Positions 11,829-55,634 of a DNA stretch of 64,000 bases are shown piece by piece. Source of the DNA: Amoebophrya sp. A120. Taxonomy: Eukaryota > Protista > Dinoflagellata. The stretch is taken from assembly GCA_905178155.1 (NCBI GenBank), contig CAJINV010000004.1, positions 8,080,144 through 8,144,143 on the forward strand, read 5' to 3'. A program made the translations under genes and the position numbers. The notes below the pieces were generated by a model. The model was not told where the DNA came from and did no database searches. It saw only the letters and a list, made by a program, of their open reading frames with translations. Positions within the stretch are counted from its first letter, which is position 1; each line of letters starts with the position of its first letter.

Positions 11829-11890
11829 AACAGGATGTTGTTGTGGGAATAAGTAGAAGATGTTGTAGTGTTTCTTCATGCGAAAGTACT

Positions 11891-11934
11891 ACTATGTACA
11901 ACTCAAAGAGTGAACTATGTACAACTCAAAGAGT
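11891..11934. repeat. 21-bp tandem duplication in the NAXD 3' flank
   Basis: ACTATGTACAACTCAAAGAGT x2 separated by GA. Confidence 0.85.
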
Positions 11935-13987: not shown

Positions 13988-14204
13988 TATGACGGTGCAC
14001 AACTCCCCCTCCCCCTCATTTGTATAGCATGACCGGCAATACAGGCATCAGCAAGAGTGCCGGTTTTGCATGACAAATTTGCACTGGATTGTAGTGCTAT
14101 TTGGGCGCCCAGAACTTGTCATGCATAATAGTGACAGGAGGAAAAGCGTGGATTTGGTATTCTGCATGAGAAATGAGAACGAGGGGGAGTTGTGCACTGT
14201 CATA
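13988..14204. mobile_element. TIR introner, family G (TATGANRGTGCACAACTCCCCCTC), at the kinase 5' end
   Basis: TSD CACGG. Confidence 0.9.
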
Positions 14205-14217
14205 CACGGAGCCTTGG

Positions 14218-25322: not shown

Positions 25323-25919
25323 GAAAACACCTATACAGATTTATCGCAGAACCCAAGTAGAGAGGACCACCGCTTGCTCCTCGAGCACTTCATTGCAGTA
25401 CAACAGTGCCGCTTTAATTCTTTGCTCGGCATAATAGTGTTCACGTGACCACGTGTGTGTTGCTTTCTCTGTTGCGGTCCACACGTAGAAGAAACACCTG
25501 GACAAGTTTTTGTGTCTGTGAACTTGAACAAAATCCTGCTGAAAATATACATTTCTCGGTTTTATTCGCACAAACATTCGCTGCTGTTCCGTTCCGGACA
25601 TAGAAAAACGAAAGTTGGATCCAGGTTTATTTTTTCTTCCGTCTAGTCGCCCTACAAACTGAGCTGTGCATGGCGACAGAAAAGTTCCAGTCAATTTATT
25701 ACAAATTTTTTTCAACAACAAACTGCACCCATACTGCGTCGAAAAGCAAAGGGCTGTGCGGCGTTTGGGAAAAGAAGTTCCATATTGACATTGTCATTGC
25801 AATAGTAAACTACAAGAAAATAAAGGGACGTGATTTAGAAGAAGTACACTTTCGTTTGATTACCACGGCGACTGCACGATAGCATCCTGTCGCGCACGAA
25901 ACACACGACAGCAGACAAA

Positions 25920-26664
25920 ATGGTTCTGAAGGCTATTGGGATTCCCGAGCACTTGGAGGTGCCCTATCAAATGCAAAAATGTCTGAAGAATGTAACTTGT
26001 CATGCTGTTTTTGGACTCTATAAAAATTTGTATTGCATGACCAGCAAGGAAGCTACAATTTGTGCTACGCGGGCAGGGCATTTCTCATGCGGAAAGTGCA
26101 TCAGGAAGGGTTCTAAAAATCTGTGATGCTAGGGCTTACATCACAGACTATCATGGGTCATGGGCAATATGCATGACAAATCTTGCATTCCTCCAGACCC
26201 AAATATTTTTGCATTTGATATGCCCCTGTACGTGGTGATTGGGTTTCACGCGCTCGCGTTCTCCACGTGGGCCGTGTTTTTTGTCAAGGATTTGGTGAAA
26301 CCGCCGTTGCTATGCGATGGAAAGTGTGTCGTGCCGGGGGCAAGGTTTCTTTGTCATGCGAGATGATGACTTGTTTTTACCATTAATGGACAAAACAGCT
26401 TCTTCGATCTCCGAGACAACATACGCAATAATGCGAATATCGATTCGATAAGTCTGTGGAAAAGAATTTGTCATGCTGCCACATGTTTTTTTTGCGCACG
26501 TGTCATCAACCAGAGGAAGAGCCTGACTGAATGTGAGATGAATCAGCTACAGCAAGAACCATCTGTAGCCATATTCTACCAGCCCCTGGCATGTACTAGG
26601 TCTTTGCCGTGCATAACCGCACCCGATTCAGGCCGAGGCGCTGAAGGAGAAGAAGGGGCTGTAG
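25920..26664 (+). CDS. Small (57 aa) single-pass membrane protein, 3 exons
   Basis: MVLKAIGIPEHLEVPLYVVIGFHALAFSTWAVFFVKDLVKPPLHPIQAEALKEKKGL* is obtained after removing elements 25965-26220 and 26311-26615 (+5 nt each). Confidence 0.6.
25965..26220. mobile_element. TIR introner, family A
   Basis: TSD TGCCC. Confidence 0.9.
26311..26615. mobile_element. Degenerate TIR introner
   Basis: TATGC..GCATA, TSD GTTGC/ACCGC, internal TGTCATGC. Confidence 0.55.
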
Positions 26665-27618
26665 AGCACGTGCAGAGCGGAATCTGCTTACATGGAAACG
26701 GTGAAGTAGATGCGAGAGACGTGATCGGCGTTCGACGCTAAGGGTATTCTTCTTACTAGCCGCAGCTTGATAACCACGACACCCCCTAAAGATAGATGAG
26801 CGACGTTCTGCAAGAAGAAATGTTGAGAAGTCCAGATGCAAAAAATGTTCTTTGAATCATTAGTTTGAAAACCCACCAGAAGTTCCCCGACGAGATTTAA
26901 TTTCTACTACTGAAGACATGTACGTAACTGCATTTTTCTGGTCGAGCTAGAAAGGCAAGTCGTTTTAGCCGGCGAAGACCGAAGCCAGTGTTCCACAAAA
27001 GCTGCGTTTTCCACTGTCCAGAGCCATCTTTTTGAAGCTCTTTTCGATAAAATTACGACAGAGATGAACTCGGAAAACCAGGAGAATACTCGGGTTTTGA
27101 AAAAGAAAATCTCTCTTGATGTGCTTGTCAAAACTAGATATTGTGATTTGGTTATTATTTCTGTGACGATTTATCCACCAAGGATCGTTCTTATTTTGGC
27201 AACAATGCACAAATGCAGCGACGAACAGCAGTTCCTTCCCATACACGACAAGCACTGTTTTGTACTACCCAGAGCATTTTTATTTTTTGTGTTTTCCCAC
27301 CTCATGTTGTTGCTGCCCCTCATTAGTAGATACCCGCGCACCACAACCCCCAAAATGTAGATCTTTTTCTTGCTCGTCGAGGAATCGAAATGAGCTTGTT
27401 TTCCCTCATTTCGACCATGGCCACCACTCCATGTTACCCATCAAACTACCCATAGGAAAAGCGTGCTAAACAACCCAGAAATTATATTACACAAACGTAA
27501 ATATTAAAACTCCATACTTACGCCAGCAACCGAAACAAGTAGACACGACCTGCGGCTCCCTTGACGTCGTCGAGGGGAGATCCTTTCTCTCATCGATTGG
27601 AAAACCGACTACACGACC

Positions 27619-30600
27619 ATGTGCATCTTCTGTGACCGGTTCCGAAGCGGCAACACCGTCCTGGACGAGGTTCTGGATGTCGAGAAATGCGAGGAGATGA
27701 AGAAGAAGCGGAAAAAAGTGACGGTCGTCACCGGCTTATCCTGAGCGAAAGCGCCCTCCGGTCAGAGTTCTTGTCATGCAGATTTGCAATTCCAGGAACA
27801 TTTGTAATGCACGTCCCCACGACGAGAGACATTTCCAATCGTGTTTTAGAATTTGTAATGCCGTAAAGAGAATAAGGAGATGGCTTTGTGATGCCCCTGT
27901 CCTTGCTGTAAACGGCACATCAGAACAGAGAGAAACTTGTGATGCGTGCCTTCCAAAACTTCTGGACTTGTGTTGCTAAGTTCCCAATTTGACTCTGCGA
28001 GGTGGTGGGCCACGTTTTTGCTCACGATACGGGTTTCTCGGATCGGGCAAGACGAGCTTCTTGAACTACGTGCTGACCTCCAATACGCACAACAAGAAAA
28101 TAGGCGTATCGAATGTAAAAATGTCTGGGTCTGGAAAATTGCCAGGTTTGTCATGCACACTTTGCATGACGTGTGAGGTCTGTGATGCATGCCCCAGCAT
28201 CACAGATTTTGTGAGATCTTTGCCATGCCTTTTCCGCATGAGAAACTGCCTCTCGGCCTTCTCAAAAGTGAACAGCTTTTTGGTAATCATGCAACACAGA
28301 TTTTTGTATGATTCAGATTTAGCATGACAAGTTGTACTCTTCCAGACCCAGACATTTTTGCAATTCATAAGGCGTAGTCGTGAACGAATTCGGTGAGACC
28401 ACCATAGACGACAAGTTTCTGAAGTCTGTATCAAGTGCAAGAATGTCTGGGTCTGGAATGTTGCCGGGTTCGTCATGCATATTGTGCATGACCCAGCATG
28501 TCTGTAATGCATGACGTAGCATCGCAGATTTTTAGAAGGCTTCCTGATGCCTTTTCCGCATGGCAAATGCCCTCCCCGCGTAGCACAAACTAGACTTCTC
28601 TTGCTGATCATGCAATACAGATTTTCTTAGAATCCACCGACAGCATCACAAGTTCCATTCTTTCCAGACCCAGACATATTTGCAATGCATAGTCTGCTGG
28701 CAATAACAAACGTGTCGAGACCTGCTCCGAGTCCGGGATGCAAGTGGTATCGCTCGAGAACGTATCCTGTGCAAAAGTATCGTACTCGTACAAATGCAAT
28801 TCTTGCATAACAAATATTTTTCTTATAGGTAAATCAGCATGACAAATTTCATTTATCATGCGGAGAAAATTTGTAATGCATCTATACGACTACGATACTG
28901 TTGCAGTTCATAGAGCGGCTGCGTGTGCTGCACGGTGCGCGGCGATTTGGTCACCGCCATGCTGAAATTCGCCTACACCATGGATGTCGACTACATCCTG
29001 CTCGAGTGCTACGAAATCGCGGACGAAAACAGGGGAACGAGGCACAGAGAACCACACAAGATGAATCTTTGGAGGAGGTTCTTGCGAAAGAAAATTGGTC
29101 TTGCAATCTTCCCGGAAGTGGACATGAATCAAAACACGACTGCCTCGCGCTCGCGCTGTCGATGCCCCAAAAAAACTTCCCCCGGAAAAAAGATAGAGCT
29201 GCTTTCTTGTTCTTGGCGAAAGTGTTTTAAAGTCCGCACCAGGCCGCGCGCTTCCCTATGCGGAGTTGTGCCCTTTGACAGATCAAGCAAGCAAAACCGA
29301 AAGCCGCTAGCCCACGCCGCTCGCTGCCCCGTCCCCCGCGCCCCCAAGTTGGTTCTGTGCCCCCACGCATGAGGATCATCTCCCAAGCCCGCATGCTGCC
29401 AAGCCCGCGCCGCGAGAAAATTATAATAATTCTGCAGACCGCAAAAATCATTCTGCAGACCGCACGGTATTTCTTATGATTGATGTTTTTTTCATCAGCA
29501 ACTACATGATGCAGCAGCAACGATTTCGGGTGTAGTAATACAACAACGAACAAGAGAACGACTACTACTACTGCTTCTGAGCCTTGAAGATCCTGTTTCT
29601 TCTTCTTTTCCATACCCTCTCCGGTCTCAGTGAGATCGTCCCGGTGTGTCAATGCTTTTTCGAGGCCGATGTGCAGCAGCACTTCCAGCTCGATGGAGTA
29701 ATATGTGTTGTCGACGGCAAGCGGCTATGGGTTGCAAAACTGCGGAATAAGTGTCGTCGTACTGATGCGCTACTGGTACATCAAACTGTGCATGTGACAA
29801 GACTGTGATAGCATCTTCACAAGTGTCAGTTTTGATGTTGTAATGCTGATCACTATTCGAAGAAGAAGAAGACAAACAGGACCCGGCATTTGATGTAAAT
29901 AGTTGTACGACGCTTGTTTTGCTGTGGATATTTTTACTACGAAGAATTCATCCTGGGACACAATTTCGATGACGACATATGCATTGCAAATATGTCTGGG
30001 TCTGGAAGGATGCAACTTGTGATGCTGCATTGGGATTCTACAAAAATCTGTATTGCATAAACAGCAAACCGGCGAGCGCGAGAGGGCATTTCTCATGCGG
30101 TATAGGCAACAGGAAGCCCTCAAAAAATTAAAATCTATGATGCTAGGGAATGCATCACAGACATCAGGAGTCATGCAAAATGTGCATGACAAACCTTGCA
30201 TCCTTCCAGACCCAGGCATATTTGCATTTGATACGACACCGTCGACGGCAACGAGGTTCGGGAAAAAGCAAATGACAGCGACGACGAGTTTGCCTGCGAA
30301 CCGATAGAAGACTATCAAATGCAAAAATGTCTGGGTCTGGAAGATTTTGAGATTTGTCATGCTTGTCTGGCATGACCAAAAAGTTTGTGATGCGTGTCCA
30401 AGAAGAGACCCTTTATTTGCCTGTCATGCAAAAACGCAGTTTGTCATGCGAAAAACGCAACACAAAGAAGCGCAGATATTTGTCATGCTTGCCTGTGCAT
30501 TACAGAGCATTCACTATCCCCAACGCAGCCTTACAAGTTTCCAGACCCAGGCATTTTTGCCTTTGATAAAGACTTTTCAACTACAACTCCCCCAAGGACG

Positions 30601-33204
30601 ACGAAAGGACTAGAACCTCCAGCGAGAACTACCTCTTCTTGGGACGATCAACATGATGGCAACCTCAATATCGAGGACGTCCAGATGCTGTCCATGTCGG
30701 ATAATGATATTAACTACGACCAGTACATCAAAAATACAACCTCTACTACTTCTAACGAGGACCAAACTATCAAGTGCAAATATGTAGTCCGGGTCTGGAA
30801 GATTGGGGGAGTTTGTCATGCAAATTGTACATGGTTCCCGATGCCTGTGATGCATGCTGTAGCACCGCAGCTTTCGCACAGGTCTGCTCATGCCTATTCT
30901 GCATTAGAGATGTCCTGTCCGGTTTGCAACAACCTGAGTGTGCTTTGCCCCTCTTGCAATACAGATTGTTGTGTGGTCGACAGCTAGCATCACAAATCCC
31001 ATTCTCTCCAGTTCCAAACGTATTTGCATTCGATACAAACGACCGTAATGCAGGACAACTCGGACATGAACCAGCTGGATTTTTTATCCTGAGTAAAAAT
31101 GTCCCCACCCCAGAGTTCGTTGTCATGCAAATCTGCATGCCAAAAAAGTTTCTCATGCGGAGGCCCATGAGAGCCATTTTCTAATCCTGTTTTGGAATTT
31201 GTGATGCTAGAATCAGCATGATGTGCTACATCTGTAATGCTTCCGAACTAGCTAAACAGGCTTACACTACGAGGATAAACTTGTCATGCGAAACAACCAA
31301 AGGTGGCCGATTTGTCTAGCGGATTTCCCATCTTGACTCTGGTGTGGGGACATTTTTACTCAGGATATTTTTTCTACTCCGATGAGCAGCTGGAACAAAG
31401 CACCACGAAAAGAGCCAAAAAGGAGCGCAAGGAGCTGATCATCGAACAGCTGTCGCTCGCGGATGTCGTTTTATTGAACAAAATTGACCTGTTCAAATCC
31501 AGACACGACCGAGACACGGTGCTGCAGCACCTAAAATCCAGAAACCACCTCGTCGATGTGCTGCCCTGCCGGCAAGCGCGAGTTTCGATTCCGCAGGTGC
31601 TGGACCGCAATTTGTTCACGCCGACGCGGGAGTTTCTCACCCAGGAACCGCTTCACATCTTTGGAAAGAAACCGCCAATAATACCGCCAGTGCTTACTTC
31701 CTTCCCCGGTAGTACAGCCTCCGCTACTGGCGGGGGCGGTGGAGGTGCGAACAGTGTGTCACTGGTCATCACGGGCGAGCCGCTGGACACGGTGAAGGTG
31801 CGCGCGTTTTTGGCGGACCTCTACATGCGGTACGCCTCGGCGCGCATCCTGCGCTGCAAGGGGGTGCTGGTCACGCAAGACTCGCCGCTGCAGAAAAAGC
31901 TGACCTGGATCATGGTCCAGGGCGTTGCAGATCACGTAGAGTGGGAACTGCTGGACCCCCAGCCGGAAGTGGAACTTATTTTGCGTGATGAAAATAATTC
32001 GTCTGAAGCAGCTCCCACTGCAAGAAGAACAACTTCCACGACCTGGGCAGAAAAAACAGCAACTTCATTAGCTACCACTACCCGATCAACAGTACTAGAG
32101 ACAGCCAACGGCACAGGAACAACAACAAGCAGGAAAGACTATAGCGATAAAACCACGATGAGCAACACGACCAGCGTCTCCAACAACAGCAACATTATCT
32201 CGCGGTTCGTATCAAGTGTAAAAATGTCTGGGTCTGGAAGAATGCAACTTGTGATGCTGCGTCTGCATTATTCAAAAATCTGTATTGCATGAACAGCAAA
32301 AGAGGTCTGGTTTTGGCCACGGCGAGAGGGCATTTCTCATGCGGTATAGGCATCAGAAAGCCCTCACAAGATCTGTGATGCTAGGGCACGCATCGCAGAC
32401 ATCAGGAGTCATGCAAAATGTGCATGACAAACCTTGCATCCTTCCAGACCCAGACATTTTTACATTTGATAAGTCGTGATCATCTACCAGAACCCACAGA
32501 GCATCGACACCAGCAAAATTCGTGCCGCTTTTTATCAAATGCAAAAATATCCCCACCCCAGAGTTGTCATGCAGATTTGCAATGACAAGAACATTTGTGA
32601 TGCGCATCCCGATGATGGGCATTTCCAGTCGTGTTTTGGAACTTGTAATGCTGTAAACGGGATAAGCAGATGGATTTGCAATGCGGCTGTCCACACTAAC
32701 CTGCACTACAGTACGAACTGAAATTTGTCATGCGTGACCACCAAAACTTCTAGGTTTGTGTTGCAAAATCCCCATCTTGACTCTGTGGTGGGGACGTTTT
32801 TACTCAGGATACTTTTCAGAGGTGCGCGATCTCCTTTGCACGAGCGGAAAGGGCCGGCAAGACCCCACAGCAGCTGCTGCTTGGAGGGTATCAAGTGTAA
32901 AAGTGTCTGGGTCTGGAAGAATGGAAGGCTTGTCATGCTTGTCTGGCATGACCCATGATGCTTGTAATGCATGACCCAGCATCAGTGATGCTGGGGCATT
33001 AATCTTCCAAAAATCTGTCATTCACAGATTTTTGGAAAGCTTCCTGATGCCATTTCCGCATGACAAATGCCCTCCTCGCGTAGCACAAATGTGGCTGCTC
33101 TTGCTGGTCATGCAATACAGATTTTTTTAGAGTCCAAAGTTAGCATCACAAGTTCCAACTTTCCAGACCCAGACACTTTTACATTTGATAGAAGGGTCGC
33201 GTGA
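27619..33204 (+). CDS. CobW/COG0523 (G3E) P-loop GTPase metallochaperone, spliced
   Basis: Reconstructed VTVVTGFLGSGKT, VVVNEFGE, NGCVCCTVRGDL (CxCC), LLECSGL, DGVICVVDG, EQLSLADVVLLNKIDL and ILRCKG. 13 TIR-type introns. Confidence 0.92.
27737..28029. mobile_element. TIR introner, family B; splits the Walker A motif
   Basis: TSD CGGCT/CGGGT. Confidence 0.9.
28107..28369. mobile_element. TIR introner, family A
   Basis: TSD AGGCG; near-identical to 53216-53482. Confidence 0.93.
28429..28691. mobile_element. TIR introner, family A
   Basis: TSD GTCTG. Confidence 0.93.
28763..28912. mobile_element. TIR introner, family D
   Basis: TSD GAACG/GAGCG. Confidence 0.9.
29010..29614. mobile_element. 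Degenerate, enlarged TIR-type intron
   Basis: TAC..ATA; removal +5 nt restores LLEC|SGLS. Confidence 0.6.
29726..29930. mobile_element. Degenerate TIR introner
   Basis: Residual TIR (GCAAAAC), TSD lost (GCGGC/TTTTT), frame restored. Confidence 0.65.
29978..30233. mobile_element. TIR introner, family A
   Basis: TSD CGACA. Confidence 0.93.
30313..30568. mobile_element. TIR introner, family A
   Basis: TSD AAGAC. Confidence 0.93.
30768..31035. mobile_element. TIR introner, family A
   Basis: TSD CAAAC. Confidence 0.9.
31085..31367. mobile_element. TIR introner, family B
   Basis: TSD TTTTT. Confidence 0.9.
32210..32471. mobile_element. TIR introner, family A
   Basis: TSD GTTCG/AGTCG. Confidence 0.9.
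32533..32811. mobile_element. TIR introner, family B with A-type outer left end
   Basis: TSD CTTTT. Confidence 0.9.
32889..33190. mobile_element. TIR introner, family A, with internal foldback
   Basis: TSD GAGGG/GAAGG. Confidence 0.9.
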
Positions 33205-34678
33205 GACAAAGGCAGTAGACCGCTTGGAACTACAAGCGCGGTGCGGTTTATTTTTCGCTTGGTCGGTCGATGATAATCTAATGTTGACTCGCCAAAATTT
33301 ATTTCGCCAGCCAAAATGCTCCAAATGCTGATGGCTCGTCACATTGTTAGCGCGTTTTATGATTATAGTGGTATACTTGTCGTGTAGTTTCCGCGACGCC
33401 CGCGAAGTTGAATGAAGTAGTCAAGCAAACCTGATCCGGGTTCATTTTTCGCGCGTTTTTTCATAAAGTAGTGGCTTCTAGAAGACTAGTTTGTACAAAT
33501 AAGTGCACTTCTGCTGCTGGGCCGCGTCCAAAGGAGTTCGAAGGAATTTGTCTTTTATAATGCCGTCCACATGGTTAGTATTGAAATTGATATTAGTGAT
33601 TTTTTGGTGTGGTCGACGGTTTTATATACTAGAGAAAGACAATGATTGAAATAGCAGGCGAAGGCACTGCGCCAGGTGTTTTCTGTTAACCGATTCGGTG
33701 CCGTCGAAGCAAGTAGCTGGCTGTTGGAAAGAAAATTTCAAACGACGACGTGACTCTATAATTGAATCGGACGACAACTACTCCAACTGAGTGGCTCCAC
33801 TGGGTGAGTGGCTCTGTAAAAATGAAGAACGCAGGTTCCTTCCCAAGAAGAGGTGGCTTCTATGAGTTATATAATATTGAGATACGAACTGCCGCAGGCC
33901 GAGAAGGTTCTGGCGCCTCTGCCGGACAGCTGCCCGGCGCGACCGAATGACGAGCTTACTGCTGATGTTGTCTGAATGAATTTCAAACGACAAGTTTATT
34001 TGGTTTCGATTCAATGAAGTAAAAACGCTGGCTCTTCTTTGCACTGGCCCGAAGTGCAGAAGGCAATGAGATACTTACTTTACCTTCGCGCACTAGGGGC
34101 GGATGATTTGCTGATTGCCTCATCCTCCCTGTTGACAGAAATCGAAGACAAGATCTCGGTTCAATATCGGTGCTGAAAATCGGAATTCCAAGACTAGGTA
34201 ACTATCCAGGGTCCCTTGGTCGAAATCTTTCTGCTGCAAAATTGTACAGATCTGAAAAATCATTTATGTCCCTTATCGATTATGATGTGAATTTCTGTTG
34301 AGCTGGAGGAAAACATTATTAAATTGACATCTTCGGTTGAGCTGGACCACTTGTCTTTTGAATGCGAATTATTTTGGTCCACGCCATTTCGTCTTTTCGC
34401 CGACAAAATTCTCACCGTGACTCCAGGTTGAAATTGAGTAGTTAGCAGCACGCATTTTGTGTCGTGTTTGCTTGGAAAATATAGCAACCCTAAACCGTTG
34501 AACAAGAAGAACGATAAAAGTAGCTGAGTTCTGCAGTAACAGTAAATTCTTGCCACCCTGGGAACTCTAAAATAAACCTGTCGGCGAAAATACAACAAAC
34601 TCGTATAGCATTTCTTCGAACAGCCTTCCTCATCTCTCACAGTATCTTTAACTTGTAAAGAGCCACAGAACCAGGATC

Positions 34679-35356
34679 ATGTTGTTGGCTTTGCTCTGGT
34701 ATGGTAGTTACTTTGCCGCATCCGCTACCAGCGGGGTAACCGTGGTTGAGGCCGCGAAAATGAACCCGCGTGCAGGAACCAGCCTGCGGGAAGGCGTTGA
34801 ACCTTTGTCGGCCGCGGCGAGAAAACAGGTCCTGGACCTCGTCGACGAATCTCGGTTCGTTGCGGTTCCTCCTCCCGTTTTACCTGGTTCTTCGCGTCTC
34901 GTCAGACATAAAAAGTACCGGGATGCAGTCCAAGCGGCTTCCTCGTTTCGGGACATCACTCCAGAAGAGCTTCAGCGGGATAAAGACTTCGTGCTGTTCT
35001 TGATCAAAAGCGGTATCCGCGAAAAAAACCCCAGCTTTTTTTTCAAGTGGGACGACCTTCCGGACGAGCTGCGGCAGGACAAAGAAATTCTACTTGCTGC
35101 CCTGCATCACAAGCTGATTCGCGATCTCTGGTGGGACCATGACAAGAAACCCACTCCACCCCGTCGGAACCCTCGCCTGTATCCGCAACCTGTGTGTTGG
35201 CGTGAATTCCGGCCCCACCTGTTCACAGACATGGAAGTCGTCCTGACGGCTATTGAAGTCGGCGCTGTTGAAAGATGTGGCAACGTGCCTCCAGAAATGC
35301 GGAGAGAGGATCAGGTCCTGCGGCTGGCGTATGCACGGAATCTTTCTTCTAATTAG
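34679..35356 (+). CDS. Intronless protein with signal peptide and DUF4116-like repeats (LQRDKDFVL / LRQDKEILLAA / MRREDQVL)
   Basis: 225-aa ORF with a hydrophobic N-terminus and repeated 'elr.Dkevvl.a' units. Confidence 0.55.
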   Translation: MLLALLWYGSYFAASATSGVTVVEAAKMNPRAGTSLREGVEPLSAAARKQVLDLVDESRFVAVPPPVLPGSSRLVRHKKYRDAVQAASSFRDITPEELQRDKDFVLFLIKSGIREKNPSFFFKWDDLPDELRQDKEILLAALHHKLIRDLWWDHDKKPTPPRRNPRLYPQPVCWREFRPHLFTDMEVVLTAIEVGAVERCGNVPPEMRREDQVLRLAYARNLSSN

Positions 35357-36733
35357 CTGCCATCAAAACAATTTATCCTGCCCTAGGGGGGGACATGCGG
35401 AGGGGTTGGGGTTCGAGTTCGTTTCAAGCTGCATCTCGGAGCTGTATCGCTGCAGTGTCGCGCATCGCATTTCGTCGCTTACAGCCATGAATTCCGAATA
35501 TCGAAACTACTCCACTCTCCTCAACATCAGTAGAGTCGTTCTCATCTTCACCTTCTTCGTCCTCCAGGAGCTTCACACAAACTAGCAGCAAAATTCATGT
35601 TGATGCGGCAAATCCAAAGCCAAACCCGCCCTACATAAAGAGAAGACGAAGGAAGCACGTGGTGACAATAGATCGATAACGCGACATTTTAGAAACTGGG
35701 GAAAACTTATCTTAGCTTGGGAGACTGTAGTGTGAATTTGAAGAATTGAAGATGTAGTTTTACTTAGATGGTGTTCGATTTGAAGTCGGTATGTCTGCGC
35801 TTGAAAAAATAACCTCTCCATTTCGAAACTAGATCCTACACTCTTACCTCCGCGCGCTAGGGGCGGATCGATGTTCATCTGCGGATTGTTCAGACAGCTA
35901 CGGCAACAGCTTCATGGTATAAGTGGCCACGCTGGAAAAATAGACCATACGTATTTCTTGTGAAGATGCGAGCTCTGTCACGTAGTCAAGCACGGAGCAG
36001 TCCGCTTGATGTTGTGTTCGTGCTGTTTCTGGCTTGCGTCCGCCGTGTGATGTGACAACTGAAAGTGTATGCACAAGAACTTGGTGAGCGAGCGAAGCCA
36101 AAACCTTCTACTGTTTTTGGTTCCGTATTAGTACTTTAGTTCTGTTGCGGCCCACGCGTTGCAGCTGCGCGGTAAAGAATATATGGCTGCTCGGTGACGA
36201 GGAGCTTACTACTATATTTTCCTTATTTACGAACCAGTAGCGTCCTCGGTGTCCTGGGTTGAAGATAAACCTTGTACATGAAAGATTTTTTGGGAAGAGT
36301 ATACATTGAAATAATGATGTCCAGACGCTGATGTCGAAACCATAACCAAGCGTGTATAAAAACTACACCATTGAACCCTACACGCACTGGTCTCCCACCA
36401 CGCCGCGGTCCTCCCCGCAAAACATCCAGAACAACTCTCCTCGCCGTCGTAGACTACAGATGGCCGAACGACTCCCGCGTCCGCCGCCAACGTTGCAGTG
36501 AGATGAAAAATTACGACGCCGGCGCAGTAGCGAATGGTACTTACTATCTCGCAGCAGTGGCAGATGGCGGGGCCGCATGGAGATTTCAACCTGTGCTGCG
36601 GGGACCATGATGAGGTACCTCTACAGCTTCGCTGCGACAAGTAGTTGGTAAAAACAGCAGGCCTGGCCGCGGAAGAAGCATCCAGCGACGGTCGTAGCGC
36701 TGCTGCTCCTGCTGCGGCCGTGAGAACTGAAGA

Positions 36734-45151
<8,418 letters not shown>

Positions 45152-47370
45152 CTGTGGGCACTTCTTGCGCTGCCTCTGTACTTCTTGTATCTCCTCGATG
45201 ATGGCAATTTCTCTCGGCTGTGATGTGCTTCTTTTACATACATCAATCGCCTCATCAAAAGCATCAAAATAGATGTAGTGGAATTCGCCCTTAGCTTTCC
45301 CTTTTCATACTGCGGAAGAATGGGCTGGCTGGACGGTGAAGAGCCGAAAGATGTTGTTTTGAACAAGCGGACAATAAGTAATATTGACGAACCCCATTGT
45401 TTTAATACTCTTCGCGGCATCAGTTGTGTAAATGATAATCCCAAAAAAGCACTCAGCTTCTACTTCACATGCGAAGAAGATGGTGCATGCAGCACTTCTA
45501 GCAGATTAGATCATTTGTAGATAAATTCTTCGATTGGTGGACACAACAAACAAAGAATAGAATCTAAAGTAAGCACTAGCCCCTAATCCTAAAACAAAGT
45601 AATTATTACAAGAACATTTTTTGTCACCGACATCACTCTCTAAGTCGATTTTTTTTTCCGTTGTTACTGTTAGAAGCATGACACTACCATACGACAATAA
45701 GTGTCACAAGATCATTATCCGTATTTTTCTAAAGCCTGCCATAGCCTCCTGGAGTGAACCAAGACAGCACGACCGGCGTTTTTACAGCGACCCGCCTCGT
45801 CGTGAAGATCATCCTACACGCAAAAGAAAACTTGGTCGCGAAAGTCGGCGCCATGGTGTGCATTTTGCTTTTTCAAGTTATGTAGTCCTGTACTGAGTAT
45901 TTACTACTTCCAAGGTCGAAGTTTAGGGCTTGGTTGTATAAAAATACTAGCAAGAATCTTCATCTTACTTTTTTCAACAGCCGTCATTTTTCGAAAAATG
46001 CGATGAACAAGATCGTACCAATTATCCGACGGATTGCTACCTAAAACCAGACGAAATTTTGCATACTGAGAATGAGAACAAGCACTATAGGAATAAACAT
46101 TCAACCACAATTCTTCTTCGAGCTAAATCAATCATGTCGCTACGAGGTACTTACTTACTAGAGTTTAAACAGCGTTTCGAGATTAGAATTGTGGGCACGG
46201 GCTGTCAGGATCGTGACAGCTGTGCTCATTGATAGCTGACGAGCAAGAACATAATTATGCTCGAATGAGGTGGACGTGGTCCAAGTATTATGTTGTTGAA
46301 GAGAGCGTACACAGTTATTGTCTTATTTTCTGTACTGGAAAAAAATTTTGTAATTCAGTTTCTGATTCATCGCCCTCGCGGTCGCGACGTAAAGCGAAAG
46401 TCTACCAGCAACATGTAAAGTTTTTTTTGTCGAATCAAACAACAAACACGCCGGTACAAGTCTCTCAATCTCCGTAATACGAGAAACAAGGCAAGATGAA
46501 AAGGGAGCAGCAACGGCGGTTCCTCTGTCAATCCTGTTGATTCATCGGTAGTTTTTGCTGGCTGTGTTTTTTTTGTATAATACGGTTTCTACCAGACAGC
46601 TCTCGCTTTTCTCACACCGTTTTGACACAGTACTACAACTAGACCATCGGTTATTTTCATTGGAAGTCAATACATACAGCATTGTAATGGCCAGTGTCGT
46701 GGTGGATCATGTACCAGAGATATCGACTTCGGTTGCAACTCCTGCTGCTCTTCGCAAAAATGAAAATCTGCTGTTAATATTACGCATGGACAAAGGTCCT
46801 CGAGGTGGAGGGCCATTGCTTCTTGAAGTCGGACCAGCAAAATATATCGGTGACCCGCATTTATTCTCTTGGCCCCGTCGATTGATGGTTGTACTCGGAT
46901 GTTTTATGACCCGGATCTGAACCAGCGTTAAAAACGGTGCGACAGCACACCGTGTCAGTCAACTGGTATTTCACTGTTTTAAAGCACGATGAAACTATCT
47001 CAACAGCAGCTAAACGACCAGTGGTTTGTCTCATCTTAGTGAGATGATCCGCGAGCTGTTGGCACCACGACCTGTAGGTTTGTAGAGACGCTTGTAACAA
47101 GCGGTGTCGTCGTACCAGTATCCTCGTAATTTTTAAATTCGACCTGTTGTACTACACCACAAGCTCTGACAAAATTTAACTTTTTCAAGACGCAAATTCG
47201 AAAAAGTGCGATAGTCTATTTATTTCAGATTTGTCACTTTTTGATACCGCTTCGGAAAATCGTCACCGCAAGCAGCTGCAATTAAAATTGCCATTTCGGA
47301 AAAAATTATATATGATTTTTCGACTTTTTCACCTTTTTGTGTAAATTCTTTCCCCACGAGGATTGAAAAA

Positions 47371-50300
47371 ATGCGGCTGCCAGCACTTCACTTCGCAGTG
47401 GGGGCTGCAAGAACATTGGTGTCGGCCAATCTGTTTATTCCCGGGCGTGGTCCTGGGTTGATGCCAACGGATGATGAATCGCCAACAACAACGCCCGAAA
47501 CCTTCAACGGCGACGACGTGGCGGGGAAACCTCCAACGATCGAAGTCGGAACCAACAAAAAGCAGCATGGAAATGATCCTTCTGCGATGCAGATTCAGTT
47601 CGCTGTTTGTAAGGAGCCGGAAAAAGAGGACATTCCAGTGGACTTCAAAAGCGTTCCTTCCCCTGAGCATGGATTCCCCGTTGCCGTATCAAAATGAACA
47701 AGGATCCCCCCGCCTCCCCATAGTACTTATTAAAACGGAGATCTGCGCTGTTGTACGAGCATTTTTTAAATCGCCGATTGTCAACATATGCTAGAGGGGA
47801 AGTACTAGAGATGCGGACAGTAGTGCTGGCTGGTGTTGGAATACTTTTAAAAAACAAGCCTTGTGTATTATTCAGCACGACAGGAAGCATCTGGAAGCGG
47901 GAAGCAGCATCTTCACAAATTGCCTGCAAACGAGGCCACAACTGCGTCTCATCTTTGCCTCCTAGCAATACAAGTCGTGGTGCAACTCGTATAGGCACAG
48001 CATTGATTCCGATACCTGGGGAGGGGGGATTTGATTTCCGCACAATACGCCGGGCCCCTAGACTATGCCGCTGCTGAGTACAATGCCACCCTCCTGGAGA
48101 GCCAGGAGGCGATGGACTTGCAGTTCGATAAGGTATCAAATGCAAATATGTCTGGGTCTGGAACAGTTGAACTTGTGATGCGTGTCTTGCAATCCTGGAA
48201 AATCTCTGTTGCATGAGCAGCAACAGAGGAGCTTCCTTTGTCATGCAAGAACGCAATGTGTGATGCGTGCTAGGCATCAGCAGGCGTCTTAAAAACTTGT
48301 CATGCTTGGCTGCCATTGCAAGTGCTTTAATCATGCTCAATTCAGCATCACAGGTTTCCAGACCCAGACATATTTGCAGTGCATATAAGGACGGGGCCAA
48401 CAAATGGTCCTCCGACCACACCATGCAGCTTTTGGAGATATCAAATGCAAAAATGTCTGGGTCTGGAAGGTTGGAACTTGTGATGCTAACTTTGGACTCC
48501 AAAAAAATCTGTATTGCGTGACCAGCAAGAGGAGTCTAGTTTGTGCTACGCGGGGAGGGCGTTTGTCATGCGGGACAGGCATCAGGAAGGCCTCTAAAAA
48601 TATGTGATGCCAGATCAAACATTACAGACATCCTGAGTCATGTAAAATATGCATGACAAACCTGGCAACCTTCCAGACCCAGACATTTTTGCATTTGATA
48701 GGAGATCAAGGAAGTCAAAGTCGGAAGCAACAGCACAACTGGGGAGCAGCAGCTCCACCAGCTCCACACCTCGCTCCGCGGCATGTATTGAGAGGAAAAT
48801 AAATCCCTCCTCCCCATATCGTCGAAAAGGTATGTTTCCGAAATAAATTTGTGTTGCTGATTTGAGACCACAAATGATCCCGCCTGTCTTGCTAGAAGAC
48901 AAGTGCAGAGTGGCTTCCGCACCATTATGGAAGCAATTTGGCATGCTGTTGGGCTTAGGGAAAAGCCGTTTGCAATGCGAAGCAACTAGACCCAAACGCT
49001 CCTACCTAGGCTGAGGATCTGGCTGCGAAGATGCCGTGCTGCAAGACAGCGCGCATTTGTGTACTACGGAAATCCAGCATCAGAAACTTTGTCGCGACAG
49101 GGGGAGGGGGGATTTTTCCTTACGATAGCATGACGTGGAACATCATGATGAAACCCGGGCGTATGGTCATCCCGGACAGAACGGATGAGAACAAGAAAAT
49201 GGCGATCACCTTTTCCCCCTGGTCGAACTTTCAACAAACAGACGACATCGAGAAAAACCAGTTTGAGCTTGCGGAGCACTACAAAATGCGGAAGATTTAC
49301 CAAGTGAAAAAGATCGTGCAAGTGATGAAAGAGGAGAACCTGCAGTTTGCCATGCTGCAAGAGGTGGACTTCCTGCTCACCGTCCAAGATCGCCATCGGA
49401 AAAACAAACTCACGATGATAAGAAAGCAAATTTTTGCATTTTGGCGGAACTACATCGAGGAGTCTGGGCTACGCTTTGTCACCACGGATCCTAAGATCCC
49501 GAATGTTCAGAAGCTGATGATCGTGTACGATCCCAAGTGGCTTGTCCCCGAGAAGCGAAGATTCGGGCCCAAGAATTATGTGGCCAACTACTATGACCGA
49601 GAGATCGCAAACTTTGGCTCCGATTCGCACCTCCATCCGCTTTGGGGTCCTTACTCCACGACAGAAACCAAACACGAAAAGGACCGGGCGGCCGGCATGC
49701 AGTTTAGCATCCGCGACGGCGCTATGAAATGCAAATATGTCTGGGGCTGGAAGTGTGGAACTTGTAATGCTGTCTACGGATTCTAAAAGTATCTGTGTTG
49801 CATGAGCAGCCAGAGGAGTCCAGTTCTTGGCACGCGCAGAGGGCATTTCTCATGCGTGATGAAGAGCATCAAGAAGCCCTCAAAGAATCTGTGATGCTAG
49901 GACCTGCATCACGCAAAATGTGCATGACAAACTCCGACTCGTCCAGACCCAGACATATTTGCATTTGATAGGCGCCGGCGGGATGACTGAAGCGAAAGTG
50001 CACCTAGTCAACCTGCACCTCCACCAAGACGATCCTAAGTATTGCGAGGAAAAATTCCCCCTCCCCATAGCGAAAAGGAAATTTGTGATGCTGGATTTGC
50101 GTACAACTCAGGTCGCCTTGTATTGCTAGAGGCCCAAGAGACGCAGTTGTGGCCTGAATTGCAGGCAGTTTGTCTTGCTGTTTTCCACTTTCAGTTGCCT
50201 CCTGTGATGCTGAAGATGCAAGGCCTGCTTCCCACGCCAGCCAGCACTACAGTCCGCATCTTTATATGCCTTCTAGCATGACAAAACGTGATTTGTGGCA

Positions 50301-53300
50301 TCAAGCTCCGTTTTTTCAGTACACAAATCTCCGTTTTAGTATGGGGATATCGTAACTTTTCATTTTGATACTAAGTACTTTATATCAACTATGAAAATGT
50401 CTGGGTCTGGAAAGATCCAAGGTTTGTCATGCTTGTCGGACATGACTCTCAAGTCTGTCATGCACATTACCCAAAAGTGCCACTTTTCTGTCATGCAGAA
50501 GCTCACTTTCTCATGCAGAAAAGCCAAGACTTTAGCACCTCCAAAACTTGTCATGCTTGCCTGTCAAATGAGGCGTGCTCGTCTTTCGCAACTAGTATTA
50601 CAAGTTCCCAGACCCAGACATATTTGCAATGCATACTTTAATTTGTTACCCTCGTACGCCGGCACGATGTATCGACTACAGAAAATGAACCTGAAGCACT
50701 ATGCATTGCAAATATCTTCGATCTGCGTCTGGAATTGGATGCAACTTGTCATGCGAAGTAGTCTCAAGCCTGAAACAAAAATCTGTATTGCATGAAGGCC
50801 AAAAGATGTTGCCCACGACTTCTTGCTGGGCTGCAAAAGGCGGATTTCTTATCATGCGGGGTAGGCATGGTGAAGATCAGCTCGCAAAATCTGTGATGCA
50901 GCTTCATCTGTGTGCATTACAGACCATGTCTGCGTGCTGTGGTCCGCGAGATGCATGACAAGTCTTGCAGTCCTCTTCGAGACATCCCCATCCAGGGATA
51001 TTTGCACCGGATAAGCACTATGGATTGTAAAAATGTCTGGGTCTGGAAGGTTGCAACTTGTAATGCTAGCTTTCCATACCTAGAAAATCTGCATTGCATA
51101 ACGAACAAAAGTCGCAGCCTCTTTTGTCATGCAAAAACGCAGTTTCTCATGCGGATTGCCTATGAGAAAGCGTTTTGGGAAGTTGGCATGCCGGACTGCA
51201 TTCGAAAGTGTTTTCATCATGCACATTTTAGCATCACAAGTTTCCAGACCCAGACATTTTTACACTTGATAAGCACGGGATTGCCACGATTCTCGCCGGG
51301 GACACGAACCACTGCGTCAATATCAACTGCAAATATGTCTGGGTCTGGAAGAATGCAAGTTTGTCATGCACGTTTTGCATGAGCCATGATGTCTGTGATG
51401 TTTGTCCTAGCATCACAGATTTTCTGACGGCTTCGTGATGCCTATCCCGCATGAGAAATGCCCTGTCCGCGTAGCAAAAATTGGACTCCTTTTGCTGCTC
51501 ATGCAATACTTACAGATTTTTTTAGAATCCAAACGCAGCATCACAAGTTGCACGTGCACCCTTCCGGACCGAGACATATTCTCATTTGATAGTCAAGTGC
51601 GCAATGCCATTGATGACCGGCACGGGGGACCTGGCCAGCGGCTTGGGCGGGTCCGACATCCATGCGCGAGAACTGGGCAAAGACAAAACGGGAGTGTATC
51701 AAATGCAAATATCGATCTGGGTCTGGAAAGGTTGAGCTTGTATTGCGTGTTTCGCATTCCTACAAAATCTGTATTGCATAAAAAGCAAATGAAGCAACAC
51801 ACTTTCATCATGCAAAGTCGCAGTTTCTGTATGCGTTCTAGCGCATGAGAAAGCGTTTGAAAAATTCGTCATGCTGAACTGCACTCAAAGGCACAGTCAA
51901 TCATGGCCATTCAGCCTTACAAGTTTCCAGACATCCAGACATATTTGCAATTCATAGATTGCCCATTGTCGCCGCTGACGCAGTTTCGCTGGACAGGCGG
52001 GTGCACACGGTCCCCTACAATGGCATGCCGCCTCCGCATTTCCACACGGTGCCGAACCAAATTGACGGGTTTTTCGTGTCGCCTAGCAGCAAGAATCACT
52101 TCGTCGCCGTGCGCGAACTACGGTCGGTAGAATGGATTACGCATTGCAAATATCCCTGGATGTTGTCTGGAAGGTTGCAAGAACTTGTGATGCTGTCTTT
52201 GGATTCTGAAAAAAGTGTATTGCATGAGCAGCAAGAGGAGTCGAGTTTGTGCTACGCGGAGAGGGCATTTCTCACGCGGAATAGGGAGGAAGACGCCCTC
52301 AACAAATCTGTGATGCTGGACCATGCATCACAAAGGACATCATGGGCCGTGCACAATGTGCATGACAAGGAACCTCGCATCCTTCCAGACCAAGATCGAT
52401 ATTTGAAATCCATATGGATCGTGCGGAAACAACCTCCCGGGGAGGAGAGGAAGTTCCTATGAGAGTGCACAACTCCCCCTCCCCCCCATTTGTTTTGCAT
52501 GAACAGCAACACAAGCGCTGGCAACAATGCAGCTTTTGCATGACAAACTCCTACAGAGGACTGTAGTGCTGTTTTGGATTCCGGAACAATCTGTCATGCA
52601 AATAGTGTTGACAGACAAAGGGTGGATTTTGAATTTTGCACCACAAATCGGGGGGGAGGGGGAGTTGCGCACTCTCATAGCCCCCTGCATTGGCACAGAA
52701 CACGCGGAAGGAACAAGACTGCTATTCCGTCTCGACTAAGGGGCAGCCCTACATCCGCAAGGGCGTAGAGGAGGAGCTGCTCAAGTGCCTAGCGGCCGCG
52801 GAAAGGAACAGAATTTCAATCAAACAAGAACCCAAAGGGGAACAAGAAAAGTTCCTCGAGGATCGCGACGCTTGGCTATGTCGATTGCAAATTATATCGA
52901 GATCTGGGTCTGGAAAGTTCGAACTTCGATCATGCTGGGCTTCGATTTTTTTTGTGAAATCAGTGTATTGCATGACCAGCAAGATGAGTCGCAGGCTCTT
53001 CTGTCATACAAAAACGCAGTTTCCGACGCGGGCTGCGCATGCGAAAGCGTTCTGAGAACTTGTCATGCCATTGGCAGCATTGATTCGGATGCCGCGTTTG
53101 TTCCATCGTCCAGATAGAAATTGTAGCATCACAAATTATTTCCAGAGGACCCAGACAACATATGTGATTTGATAGTGGCACTGGTACTACGATGACCGGA
53201 AAAAGAAATGGGCCTTATCCATTGCAAATATGTCTGGGTCTGGAAAAGTGCAACGTTTGTCATGCACGTTTTGCATGACGCATGAGGTCTGTGATGCATG

Positions 53301-54175
53301 CCCTGGCATCACAGATTCTGTGAGATCTTTGCCATGCCTTTTCCGCATGAGAAACTGCCTCTCGGCTTGCTCAAAAGTGGACAGCTTTATTGGTAATCAT
53401 GCAACACAGATTTTTGCATGATTCAGATTTAGCATGACAAGTTGTACCCTTCCAGAGGACCCAGGCACTTTTACAATCCATAGGCCTGGACGTGGAACCA
53501 CGAAGTGTGGGAAAAAATGCTGAGCGACGTCGTGAAAGGCACGCCCGCGTTCTATCAAAGTGAAAAAAGCCCCCACCCCACATCAAAACGAAATTTCTGA
53601 TGCTGGATTTGCGTACACAGATCAGATTTGTCTTGCAGTAGGGGACTGCAGGCCGATATCATGCCAGTACGCAGAGGTTTTGGCCTAGGCACTTAGCATG
53701 GGGAACGCCTATGCTGTAGGACCAACAGCATTACAAACCGCCTGCATAATGGGGCGGAGCGGATGCCGTTGCTTTCTTGCAAGACAGACACGATTTGTGG
53801 TCGCAAATCAGCATCACAAATTTTTTGAGGCGTTCCGTTTCGATATGGGGAGGGGGGATTTTTCCTTACGATACGTTCAAACCCGGGACGAGGATTGAGG
53901 GCGGACTTAGCGCTTTGCAAACCCGGAAGGACTGGAGCGGCCCTCCTAAACCCTTTCCGGCGTCCGAAGCAGACTGCTTCAAAATTGATGGGCCCTACGG
54001 TCGTGTCGGTGAGTACAAAAACCTCGAGCACCTCATGCTGACGAAGCCGGCGGCGCGGGAAGATGACTCTGACGAAGTTCCTACCACTGTAACTCGGGCG
54101 AAAAAGATTGATTTCGGGCTCCTGAGAGGAGTCAACCGGTTTTCGATGGTCCAGCCCGGGATGGGGGATGATTGA
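47371..54175 (+). CDS. Endonuclease/exonuclease/phosphatase (EEP) superfamily protein, spliced
   Basis: Reconstructed LRGMTWNI, FAMLQEVD, HLVNLHL, ILAGDTN, QIDGFF, with SDH near the N-terminus. 16 TIR introns. Confidence 0.75.
47687..48047. mobile_element. TIR introner, family C
   Basis: TSD TGCCG/CGCCG. Confidence 0.85.
48134..48385. mobile_element. TIR introner, family A
   Basis: TSD TAAGG. Confidence 0.93.
48439..48700. mobile_element. TIR introner, family A
   Basis: TSD GGAGA. Confidence 0.93.
48786..49127. mobile_element. TIR introner, family C
   Basis: TSD GCATG. Confidence 0.9.
49723..49970. mobile_element. TIR introner, family A
   Basis: TSD GGCGC. Confidence 0.92.
50040..50370. 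mobile_element. TIR introner, family C
   Basis: TSD CTAAG. Confidence 0.88.
50383..50635. mobile_element. TIR introner, family A
   Basis: TSD CTTTA. Confidence 0.9.
50700..51013. mobile_element. TIR introner, diverged family A (first of tandem pair)
   Basis: TSD AGCAC. Confidence 0.88.
51019..51271. mobile_element. TIR introner, family A (second of tandem pair)
   Basis: TSD AGCAC. Confidence 0.92.
51321..51591. mobile_element. TIR introner, family A
   Basis: TSD GTCAA. Confidence 0.92.
51697..51956. mobile_element. TIR introner, family A
   Basis: TSD GAGTG/GATTG. Confidence 0.9.
52138..52414. mobile_element. TIR introner, family A (TAC start)
   Basis: TSD TGGAT. Confidence 0.87.
52458..52679. 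mobile_element. TIR introner, family G
   Basis: TSD GTTCC/GCCCC. Confidence 0.9.
52877..53174. mobile_element. TIR introner, diverged family A
   Basis: TSD TTGGC/GTGGC. Confidence 0.85.
53216..53482. mobile_element. TIR introner, family A
   Basis: TSD GGCCT. Confidence 0.92.
53553..53873. mobile_element. TIR introner, family C
   Basis: TSD CGTTC. Confidence 0.9.
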
Positions 54176-55634
54176 TGCCGAGCCGATGTCATCTGTGAAG
54201 GAAAATAAGGGGGCACCAGCCTACTTAAAACTTGAGCTTCCGGATCCGGTTGCTGCGTAGAAGCTCTAGATTTTGCAAACTGTCTTGATGTACTATAGAT
54301 CCCTTGTGGTCGTTCATGGGTGCCTCAATGAGTACTGACTCGTTGGTGGCAATTTTTCGTGCACGACTGGTACAACTAGAAGACCTTTTATAAATATTGA
54401 ATTTGAAGTACATGATCGACCCAAATATGATTCCGCAGCGTTTTTTCCTAGTGCGCATTTATTTTTTGCTCTACCCGGAGGTGGGCTAGCATTTGTTGTT
54501 CCCACCTGTTGTCACACAAAAAATGTCTATATAATTACCAGCAGAGCATGCTGTGGCTTCTCTGCTTGCGGCAAATTCACGCCCGTCCAAGAAACAATGT
54601 ACCGTCTACAGCAGGATTTCTATCAGCAAGCATATTCAATATCATACGTTGCGACTTATTTTCCATGTTAAAAACGACCAAACTCTGCTCTGGCTTCAGA
54701 TATACTATGCGCGGCCATGATACCAAGAAACCGAACAAAATTTTGTCCCGCCACTACGCACGATGCAGTGGCATGCACATGCTGCCGCTCCATTACCGTT
54801 CACGCCAATACTGATTGATGTGTCTTTCTGCAACGTGATTGGTAACACTGACACTAAGCAGAACTGCAAATGACGTGTTCATCACACTCCTCGGCAACGC
54901 ACAGTGCCGCGAGATGTCGGTCTTTTTTTTGTGAAACGAAGAAGCAATCAGCCGCGGACAATCATAATCAAGGCCAATCACTATACTTCGGTTGTTTCGA
55001 TGGATTTTTTTTCTCCTGCTCTCGTCTACTTCCACTCAACAAGGACCGGCCTAAATTTTTTAGCTTTAAGATTCAACTATCAGTAACCTTATACCTTAGT
55101 GCATCAAAAGTCGTGTCGATAAAATTGTCGTTGCAAGGCAAAGAATGTAGTCGGTTTGAGTAATTAAAAATCGTGTAGGAATTTTTTTCATAAATCCCCA
55201 TCGTTGCAAATGCAAGAGTCGTTTTTTGTTTTTCAACAAAACAGCACCCGAAAAAAATCGTGGACCTCCTATGTAGCTCCTATTTCATCTTGGATCGTCT
55301 CGTATTAATTCCAATCGTGAAAAGTGGAGTAAAAATCTTCCACTTCGTAGAACGGGAAAAATTGATACATGATACAACGAACCTAGTTGAAAAACGATTC
55401 AGCATAAATAGTGTTTGTGCAGGTGTTTTTTTCACCCCAAATTATTTGCCGTCCAGCACGGTTCAATTTTTTATGGTGTAGTCCTGTTGTAACAACAACA
55501 GGACTACTGGGCGAAAAGTAAGGGTGAAATCCTATAATTTCATCTATCGCTACTCTGCTACACTTCTTGTGAAGACCACTCTCCTCATTTATTCAACTGT
55601 GTAGTAGTTCACGTTTTATTTGAACAGCAAAATC

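What the first reader, a model, noticed from the sequence alone, without database searches (positions are those of the whole stretch)
32888..48389. Introners that are GT-AG in the -1/+4 register: a route to canonical introns
Seen: at 32889 the downstream TSD differs (GAGGG to GAAGG), making intron 32888-33194 GT...AG. TSD TAAGG makes 48133-48389 GT...AG. The apparently canonical intron 43902-44062 is G-TAT...ATA-TAAG. 8048-8310 is G-TATCAAAATG...ATT-GCAG flanked by GCAGG on both sides, and 41376-41502 is G-TATCAG...ATC-CCAG. Several mismatched TSDs have G at position 4 of the downstream copy (CTTGA, CGGGT, AAGGA, GTCGC), the last intron base. Inference: a continuum from TIR-defined to sequence-defined introns, which suggests the same spliceosome handles both.
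Basis: partly seen in the sequence, partly recalled or inferred. Interest (0 to 1): 0.72.

Follow-up and report, generated by a model that had tools for sequence, protein, structure and literature searches.

The report
Transposon introns look canonical by chance
These are already published transposon-derived introns of what is likely the marine parasite Amoebophrya; about 3 in 100 carry normal GT-AG ends, as chance landing sites predict, and older copies show no drift toward them, so the proposed route to normal introns is likely a neutral trickle, not a driven process.

Summary
All five introns exist and read GT...AG; four are cut out exactly in likely-RNA contigs, and 8048 is supported by Pfam colinearity. 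The -1/+4 cut is forced at three diverged junctions; this scan reported that rule before on other pieces of this genome. In 292 intact elements (window plus a related metagenome genome), 8 are GT-AG (2.7%; about 2-2.7% expected), and mismatches run toward GT/AG 10 times and away 13 times. GT-AG does not rise with repeat decay: 5/186, 1/49, 1/25, 0/47. One orthologous intron at an exon-kept AG|G site lacks its G in both genomes. The four cited 'G at position 4' cases are real but selected. Ordinary canonical introns form a separate class with no terminal hairpin, and GTAT/GTATAG is a normal donor. 8048 is likely a decayed introner, 41376 possibly, 43902 not demonstrably. Residual lead (post hoc): GTAT canonical introns carry the introner's inner motif more often (8/19 vs 3/52). 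'Same spliceosome' is plausible but untested.

The parts
32888..33194 (+). Intact TAT...ATA introner (32889-33190, TIR 29/30), repeats GAGGG/GAAGG; GT-AG in the -1/+4 register; last intron of a CobW-family gene, 3 codons before the stop
   Evidence: (joint fits k=3-5)
48133..48389 (+). Intact introner with perfect TAAGG repeat: GT-AG from birth (NNAGG target)
8048..8310 (+). GT-AG intron in an NAD(P)H-hydrate dehydratase gene; likely a decayed introner born at GCAGG (end scores 4.0/11.3, repeat 5/5, no terminal hairpin, no inner motif); not checked with reads
41376..41502 (+). GT-AG intron in a kinesin gene; possible old introner (end-score sum -4.3, 2nd when set beside 71 predicted canonical introns; inner motif at +35; repeats match 2/5)
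43902..44062 (+). GT-AG intron in the kinesin gene; ends like ordinary canonical introns (GTATAG donor, A-rich 3' part, score sum -13.1); inner motif at +47; introner origin not shown
40463..40778 (+). Old introner, TT...CG; repeats GGGTT/GTCGC; the joint is unique to -1/+4 and restores FRGSKLT
41116..41306 (+). Old introner, TT...AC, at an exon-kept site CGAG|G; the orthologue in L119 is CT...AG: GT absent in both genomes, AG absent here
29725..29934 (+). Old introner, CT...TT; flanking repeats 0/5 alike but TIR ends kept; the joint is unique to -1/+4
42115..42449 (+). Introner AAGGT/AAGGC: TT...GG in -1/+4 but GT...AG one base to the left (42114-42448), giving the same mRNA
37112..37242 (+). 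Predicted canonical GTAT...ACAG intron holding a 79% copy of the first 99 nt of another introner at +8; not checked with reads
1317..63523 (+). Span of the 85 TIR-type introns catalogued in the window, all in + strand genes

Best explanation
These are Amoebophrya A120-type introners (TAT...ATA inverted ends, 5-base target repeat) that are missing from likely-RNA contigs with the cut one base before and four bases after the element, and the roughly 3% that read GT-AG likely do so only because they landed on an NNAGG site or drifted into one. The G at +1 and the AG at -2/-1 come from the target repeat and appear invisible to selection while the TIR ends are kept: they are gained and lost at similar rates. 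The machine is inferred to be the major spliceosome, relaxed at +1 and at the 3' dinucleotide and placed by the element's ends; the TAT start supplies +2..+4 of the host's ordinary GTAY donor. An element that happens to be GT-AG would no longer need its TIR and can decay into an ordinary-looking intron (8048 likely, 41376 possibly). That is a passive trickle from a 2-5% subset, not a selected conversion of the class. Shown: register, chance-level GT-AG, no directional bias. Inferred: which copy mutated, relaxation after GT-AG, identity of the machine.
For: Register unique at 40463, 41116 and 29725, and compatible at every other TIR-type joint listed. GT-AG 8 of 292 against an exon AGG background of 1.8% (P = 0.16) or the product of G+1 and AG frequencies, 2.7% (P = 0.53). 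Mismatches: position 3 to A 3, from A 3; position 4 to G 4, from G 6; position 5 to G 3, from G 4; restricted to changes that would be non-synonymous in the exon, toward 5, away 7. GT-AG by repeat match 5, 4, 3, <=2: 5/186, 1/49, 1/25, 0/47 (Fisher P = 0.71). Orthologue L119: exon-kept CGAG|G but intron CT..AG there and TT..AC here. Canonical class: ATA at -7..-5 in 0 of 93, no end pairing (self -9.0 vs cross -8.8 kcal/mol, n = 58, permutation P = 0.24), while 66 weak-motif introners still pair at -26.0 vs -11.9. Farhat 2021 (PMC7789003) found nearly all spliceosome proteins, no minor spliceosome and no U1.
Against: Farhat's figures (15% of canonical and 30% of non-canonical A120 introns have inverted plus direct repeats) imply by my arithmetic that 21% of such introns are GT-AG, far above my 2.7% (4.5%, 13 of 292, in any register). 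Their repeat definition is looser (8-20 nt IR, 3-5 nt DR), but I could not reconcile the figures. Their Table S4 lists GT-NN and NT-AG types at 2-3% each as the commonest non-canonical ends, which hints at a mild genome-wide excess. The inner motif is in 8 of 19 GTAT canonical introns vs 3 of 52 other GTA introns, more relics than a 2.7% trickle easily explains. Power is limited: the 95% interval for GT-AG in older elements (2 of 121) reaches 5.8%. Converted elements that decay fast would leave the TIR class and escape my test. Old and canonical introns in the relative rest on my gene finder, not RNA.
Confidence: 0.65

Rival explanations
1. Selected conversion: introners are pushed by selection toward GT-AG through substitutions in the intronic repeat copies, giving a continuum to canonical introns.
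For: 32888 (G>A at -2; the exon change would be non-synonymous); four to-G changes at -1 in the window; 41376 reads as TGAC|G with intron end CCAG; the 21% implied by published figures.
Against: Toward 10, away 13; no rise with age; loss of GT and AG at 41116; two discrete classes.
Confidence: 0.08
2. Neutral ratchet of real size: the ~30% of introners born with a GTAT donor occasionally gain or shift to an AG, then lose their TIR quickly and cannot go back, so a good part of GTAT canonical introns are old introners. This is compatible with the best explanation but larger in scale.
For: Inner motif in 8/19 vs 3/52 predicted canonical introns of the relative (P = 0.0007), 6/15 vs 2/24 with CAG acceptors (P = 0.04), and 4/5 vs 1/5 in the window; 0.3 of 19 expected after shuffling; absent from six intergenic stretches of about 10.7 kb, present in two others; often at +33 to +47, near the element median of +44; 37112 holds half an element.
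Against: Post hoc (two motif lengths and several thresholds tried); strictest filter 3/9 vs 1/17, P = 0.10; these introns have no TIR-like 3' end within 45 nt in most cases, no hairpin, and the opposite base skew (T-rich 5', A-rich 3'); elements can also insert into old introns.
Confidence: 0.25
3. 41376 and 43902 are ordinary ancestral canonical introns; the likeness comes from the host's GTAY donor and AG|G junction bias.
For: GTAT 12 of 56 and GTATAG 5 of 56 among predicted canonical donors; exon -1 G 24/56 and +1 G 26/56; 43902 scores -5.9/-7.2; no end pairing; no significant BLAST match to 292 elements (E 0.02 and 0.1).
Against: Both hold the inner motif at an element-like distance; 41376 ranks 2nd beside 71 canonical introns.
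Confidence: 0.5
4. Introners are removed by a separate, hairpin-guided, non-spliceosomal activity (as proposed for euglenid nonconventional introns); GT-AG copies may be substrates of both systems.
For: Complete indifference to +1, -2 and -1; strong end pairing kept even in old copies; U1 snRNA not found.
Against: +2..+4 copies the host donor; terminal variants lean to keeping +2 (4 vs 11 changes at the mirror base) and to varying +4 (15 vs 7; mostly TAC), but neither is significant (P = 0.12, 0.13); no such enzyme is known here.
Confidence: 0.2

Closest known systems
Introner elements of Amoebophrya sp. A120 (Farhat et al. 2021, PMC7789003; read abstract, passages, sections 11, 12, 16, supplement parts 2-3 of 5; figures not held)
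   Same: Inverted repeats start TAT + 7 nt + AAA; 3-5 nt direct repeats over the borders, commonest with four bases upstream; about 240-270 nt; N-T starts dominate Table S4; 15% of canonical introns are already reported to have the same IR/DR build.
   Different: In what I read, the paper leaves the cut position 'variable/unknown' and does not test direction of change; here the cut is fixed at -1/+4 and GT-AG is at chance level.
Euglenid 'intermediate' introns (Milanowski et al. 2016, PMC4770533; abstract and section 9)
   Same: Same idea and similar verdict: GT ends on hairpin introns do not show kinship with conventional introns, yet one GC-AG case makes type conversion possible.
   Different: Euglenid introns keep a purine at +1 and CAG/CTG pairing; here +1 shows no preference and the elements are young, multi-copy families.
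Polarella/Symbiodinium introners (Roy et al., bioRxiv 10.1101/2020.10.14.339549; parts 1-2 of 4)
   Same: Class 12 (5-nt TSD NNAGG) builds its donor from the last G of the TSD plus the first base of the element and its acceptor from the TSD: the same geometry as 48133.
   Different: There the TSD must supply splice sites, and borders convert directionally (GA to GC); here about 97% of elements lack them and no conversion bias is seen.
Fritillaria borealis non-canonical introns (PMC13326754, passages; review PMC11282704, passages)
   Same: Transposon-derived non-GT-AG introns handled by a modified major spliceosome; a minority of canonical introns remains.
   Different: Fritillaria has YAY triplet cues and duplicated U2AF; no sequence cue at the borders is seen here, and the Amoebophrya factors were not examined.

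Membership tests
Amoebophrya A120 introner elements | Inverted repeat starting TAT, 7 looser bases, then at least three A | tested here: met
   End profile of 292 elements vs section 11; TAT was a search condition, the A-box was not
Amoebophrya A120 introner elements | 3-5 nt direct repeat at the borders | tested here: met
   Exact 5-nt repeat in 282 of 381 elements called without using the repeat; other lengths 0-9 of 381
Amoebophrya A120 introner elements | Removed from transcripts | tested here: met
   Contig joints; runs are only guessed to be RNA; raw-read runs X8-X10 gave no junction
Amoebophrya A120 introner elements | Host is strain A120 | not testable with these tools
   No genome held; inferred from the published TAT signature and earlier scan notes
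Canonical U2 intron derived from an introner (8048) | TIR-like ends in register and 5-nt repeat | tested here: met
   Scores 4.0/11.3, GCAGG twice; no hairpin or inner motif
Canonical U2 intron derived from an introner (41376, 43902) | TIR-like ends in register and 5-nt repeat | tested here: inconclusive
   41376 2.6/-7.0, 43902 -5.9/-7.2; repeats 2/5; inner motif present
Canonical U2 intron derived from an introner | Position absent from outgroup orthologues | not testable with these tools
   No eukaryote genomes searchable; only L119 was orthologous and it does not cover the five cited introns
Selected conversion series to GT-AG | Excess change to A(-2), G(-1), G(+1), rising with age | tested here: not met
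Spliceosomal intron | Lariat, branch point, snRNP dependence | not testable with these tools
   Contigs show only the joined product

The most novel reading that the evidence does not exclude
Introners are a standing, selection-free factory of canonical introns: because their TAT start copies the host donor, the 30% born with G at +1 need only an AG to escape TIR dependence, then erode, so about a third of the canonical GTAT introns in this lineage are fully domesticated transposons betrayed only by an inner motif, and one spliceosome reads both classes through +2..+4.
Probability: 0.22. Interest if true: 0.65.

Novelty: already known. Interest (0 to 1): 0.33.

Why it matters
The elements and their canonical-looking subset are published. 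What this adds is a constraint on an unsolved splicing mechanism: the bases that define normal introns behave as neutral in these introners even when present, so the cut must be placed from the element's ends. If the motif lead holds, it would give a measurable rate at which transposons turn into ordinary introns without selection. I did not find the fixed register or a direction test in print (searches; figures of the key paper are not held), but the scan has noted the register many times.

Tried and rejected
No whole genome was held, so the genome-wide test was replaced by 144 loci (526 kb) of a related genome from one partial metagenome scan (loci were picked by one TIR family, so they are not a random sample); their contigs could not be extended. 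A viral-contig scan found 0 matches. No RNA holder was on record; X1-X4 are guessed RNA. Raw-read runs X8-X10 laid 17, 4 and 434 partial reads and showed no junction. That call listed only 15 of 61 joints, two of them repeat artefacts among those judged. A PDB search for the 8048 host exon found nothing. First gene-finder settings over-called canonical introns. Tuned settings recovered 21-22 of 28 contig-supported introns with 2-9 false calls (training overlapped the test; the final settings lay between the tested sets). General terminal hairpins in canonical introns: rejected. Strand asymmetry of TIR ends as a branch-point sign: not significant. An unused GT-AG option at 41115-41237 is uninformative because it shifts the frame. 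One hand-set end (36783) was wrong and corrected. L017 matches window 76-651 at 90% but synteny did not continue.
Full report
Setting. The window is packed with TAT...ATA elements flanked by 5-base repeats. One search gave 77 pairs (null 11-17 at that score, 0 at 23 or more); I dropped 7 weak ones and added 15 from contigs and reading, giving 85 TIR-type introns. All host genes are on the + strand: NAD(P)H-hydrate dehydratase, a kinase, a CobW protein, a kinesin and others. The end signature matches the published introners of Amoebophrya A120 (PMC7789003, section 11), so the host is likely that strain; no genome was held.

Observation. All five introns are real GT...AG intervals. Contigs of likely-RNA runs skip 32888-33194 and 48133-48389 (run X1) and 41376-41502 and 43902-44062 (4 of 4 runs, 2 samples, 1 study). 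Where the two repeat copies have diverged the contigs place the cut: uniquely at -1/+4 for 40463-40778 (TT..CG), 41116-41306 (TT..AC) and 29725-29934 (CT..TT), and compatibly at every other TIR-type joint listed. Earlier notes of this scan report the same rule; I confirmed it independently before reading them.

Direction test in the window. Taking the exon-kept base as the old state (an inference), intron-copy changes at -2 go to A once and from A three times of 12; at -1 to G four times and from G three times of 12; at +1 to G once and from G once of 6. GT-AG is 3 of 85 (P = 0.40 at 2.7%).

Direction test in a larger sample. A metagenome scan gave 144 loci (526 kb) of a related genome with the same elements. 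Elements were called on TIR pairing alone: 329 there and 52 in the window, 282 of 381 with an exact 5-base repeat. After dropping 20 with fewer than 3 matching bases and 69 with uncertain strand or a stop, 292 remained (the strand caller was right for 49 of 52 window elements, and the 3 misses, all under the margin used, were set to +). GT-AG: 8 of 292; background AGG 1.8% (P = 0.16); product of single frequencies 2.7% (P = 0.53). Changes toward GT/AG 10, away 13, neither 12; for changes that would be non-synonymous in the exon 5, 7 and 7. A gene finder built here (21-22 of 28 known introns recovered) added older copies. Of 705 predicted introns, 560 had adequate flanking exons and 307 had both end scores of 3 or more; GT-AG was 5/186, 1/49, 1/25 and 0/47 as the repeat match fell from 5 to 2 or fewer. 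A run without any canonical option gave 6/183, 1/48, 1/27 and 0/55.

One orthologue. L119 covers window 41058-41327. The intron at 41116 sits at an exon-kept CGAG|G, so it was probably born GT-AG; it now reads CT..AG in the relative and TT..AC here while keeping TIR-like ends. This is movement away from canonical ends, in a single case.

Continuum? Predicted GT-AG introns fall into about 9 with TIR-type ends and 168 typed canonical, many of the latter probably false calls. Among 93 better-supported canonical ones none has ATA at -7..-5 or a positive right-end score (those with two positive ends were typed TIR by design). They show no end pairing (n = 58, P = 0.24), whereas 66 weak-motif introners still pair strongly. 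Their donors are GTAC 16, GTAT 12, GTAG 8 and GTAA 7 of 56, with GTATAG 5 times, so G-TAT is an ordinary donor. On this scale 8048 (score sum 15.3, repeat 5/5) is a decayed introner, 41376 (-4.3) is borderline, and 43902 (-13.1) is unremarkable.

Results against my reading. Published percentages imply 21% GT-AG among repeat-bearing introns, and Table S4 puts GT-NN and NT-AG first among non-canonical types. The introners' inner motif (63 of 70 window elements, 0 in 11.8 kb of exon) occurs in 8 of 19 GTAT canonical introns of the relative but 3 of 52 other GTA introns (8-letter form; the 9-letter form gave 5/19 vs 3/52, P = 0.03), 3/9 vs 1/17 under the strictest filter (P = 0.10), and 4 of 5 vs 1 of 5 in the window. 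The predicted canonical intron 37112-37242 holds half an element. These are post hoc and rest on predictions, but they leave room for a neutral ratchet that a substitution spectrum in TIR-intact elements would not reveal.

Mechanism. Shown: fixed register, chance-level GT-AG, no directional bias. Inferred: the element's ends, not the target repeat, place the cut; TAT supplies the host-like +2..+4; a relaxed major spliceosome does the chemistry (PMC7789003 reports most proteins present, no U1, no minor spliceosome); GT-AG copies are free to lose the TIR. Nothing here tests the machine.

Known parallels. Canonical introns with introner structure are already reported for A120. The NNAGG geometry is described for a Polarella class. 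The conversion idea, with a similarly cautious verdict, is the euglenid 'intermediate intron' debate. Other Amoebophrya strains use canonical introns (PMC12005148, passages). PMC12130899 was seen as passages only. Figures of the key paper (logos, S19-S25) were not available and may bear on the register.

Verdict. Observation confirmed; directional route and continuum not supported; a passive trickle is likely (8048); same-spliceosome claim open. Already known kind; interest 0.33.

Noticed in passing
L119:307-403 vs window ~41322: The relative has a young introner inserted after TACAG in the kinesin exon; the window has the empty site with one copy, consistent with a 5-base target duplication (right end not in the locus).
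   Followed up: partly
window 50699-51275: Two introners back to back, sharing AGCAC three times, with a zero-length exon between them in the -1/+4 register; nearby 50039-50639 are separated by a 7-nt exon.
   Followed up: no
window 42114-42449: GT-AG only in the -2/+3 register; 5 of 292 other elements are GT-AG only in a shifted register. Such shifts can inflate 'canonical' counts made by read aligners.
   Followed up: partly
window 29009-29618: 610-nt non-canonical intron (CT..CT) with almost no left TIR motif, still cut at -1/+4 in contigs.
   Followed up: partly
window 76-651 and L017:1266-1832; window 35726-35840 and L017:359-467: Non-coding stretch 90% alike between the two genomes without further synteny, rich in the inner motif; probably another mobile element.
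   Followed up: no
window 24418-25350: Intergenic region with long self-complementary GC-rich tracts and a ~55-nt direct repeat (near 24325 and 25265).
   Followed up: no
predicted canonical introns, window and loci: T-rich 5' part and A-rich 3' part ending (A/C)CAG with no pyrimidine tract, the reverse of the introner skew.
   Followed up: partly
one search set: Left-end variants are mostly TAC (7 of 307), matching the GTAC donor, while right-end variants change the outer bases; trend only.
   Followed up: partly
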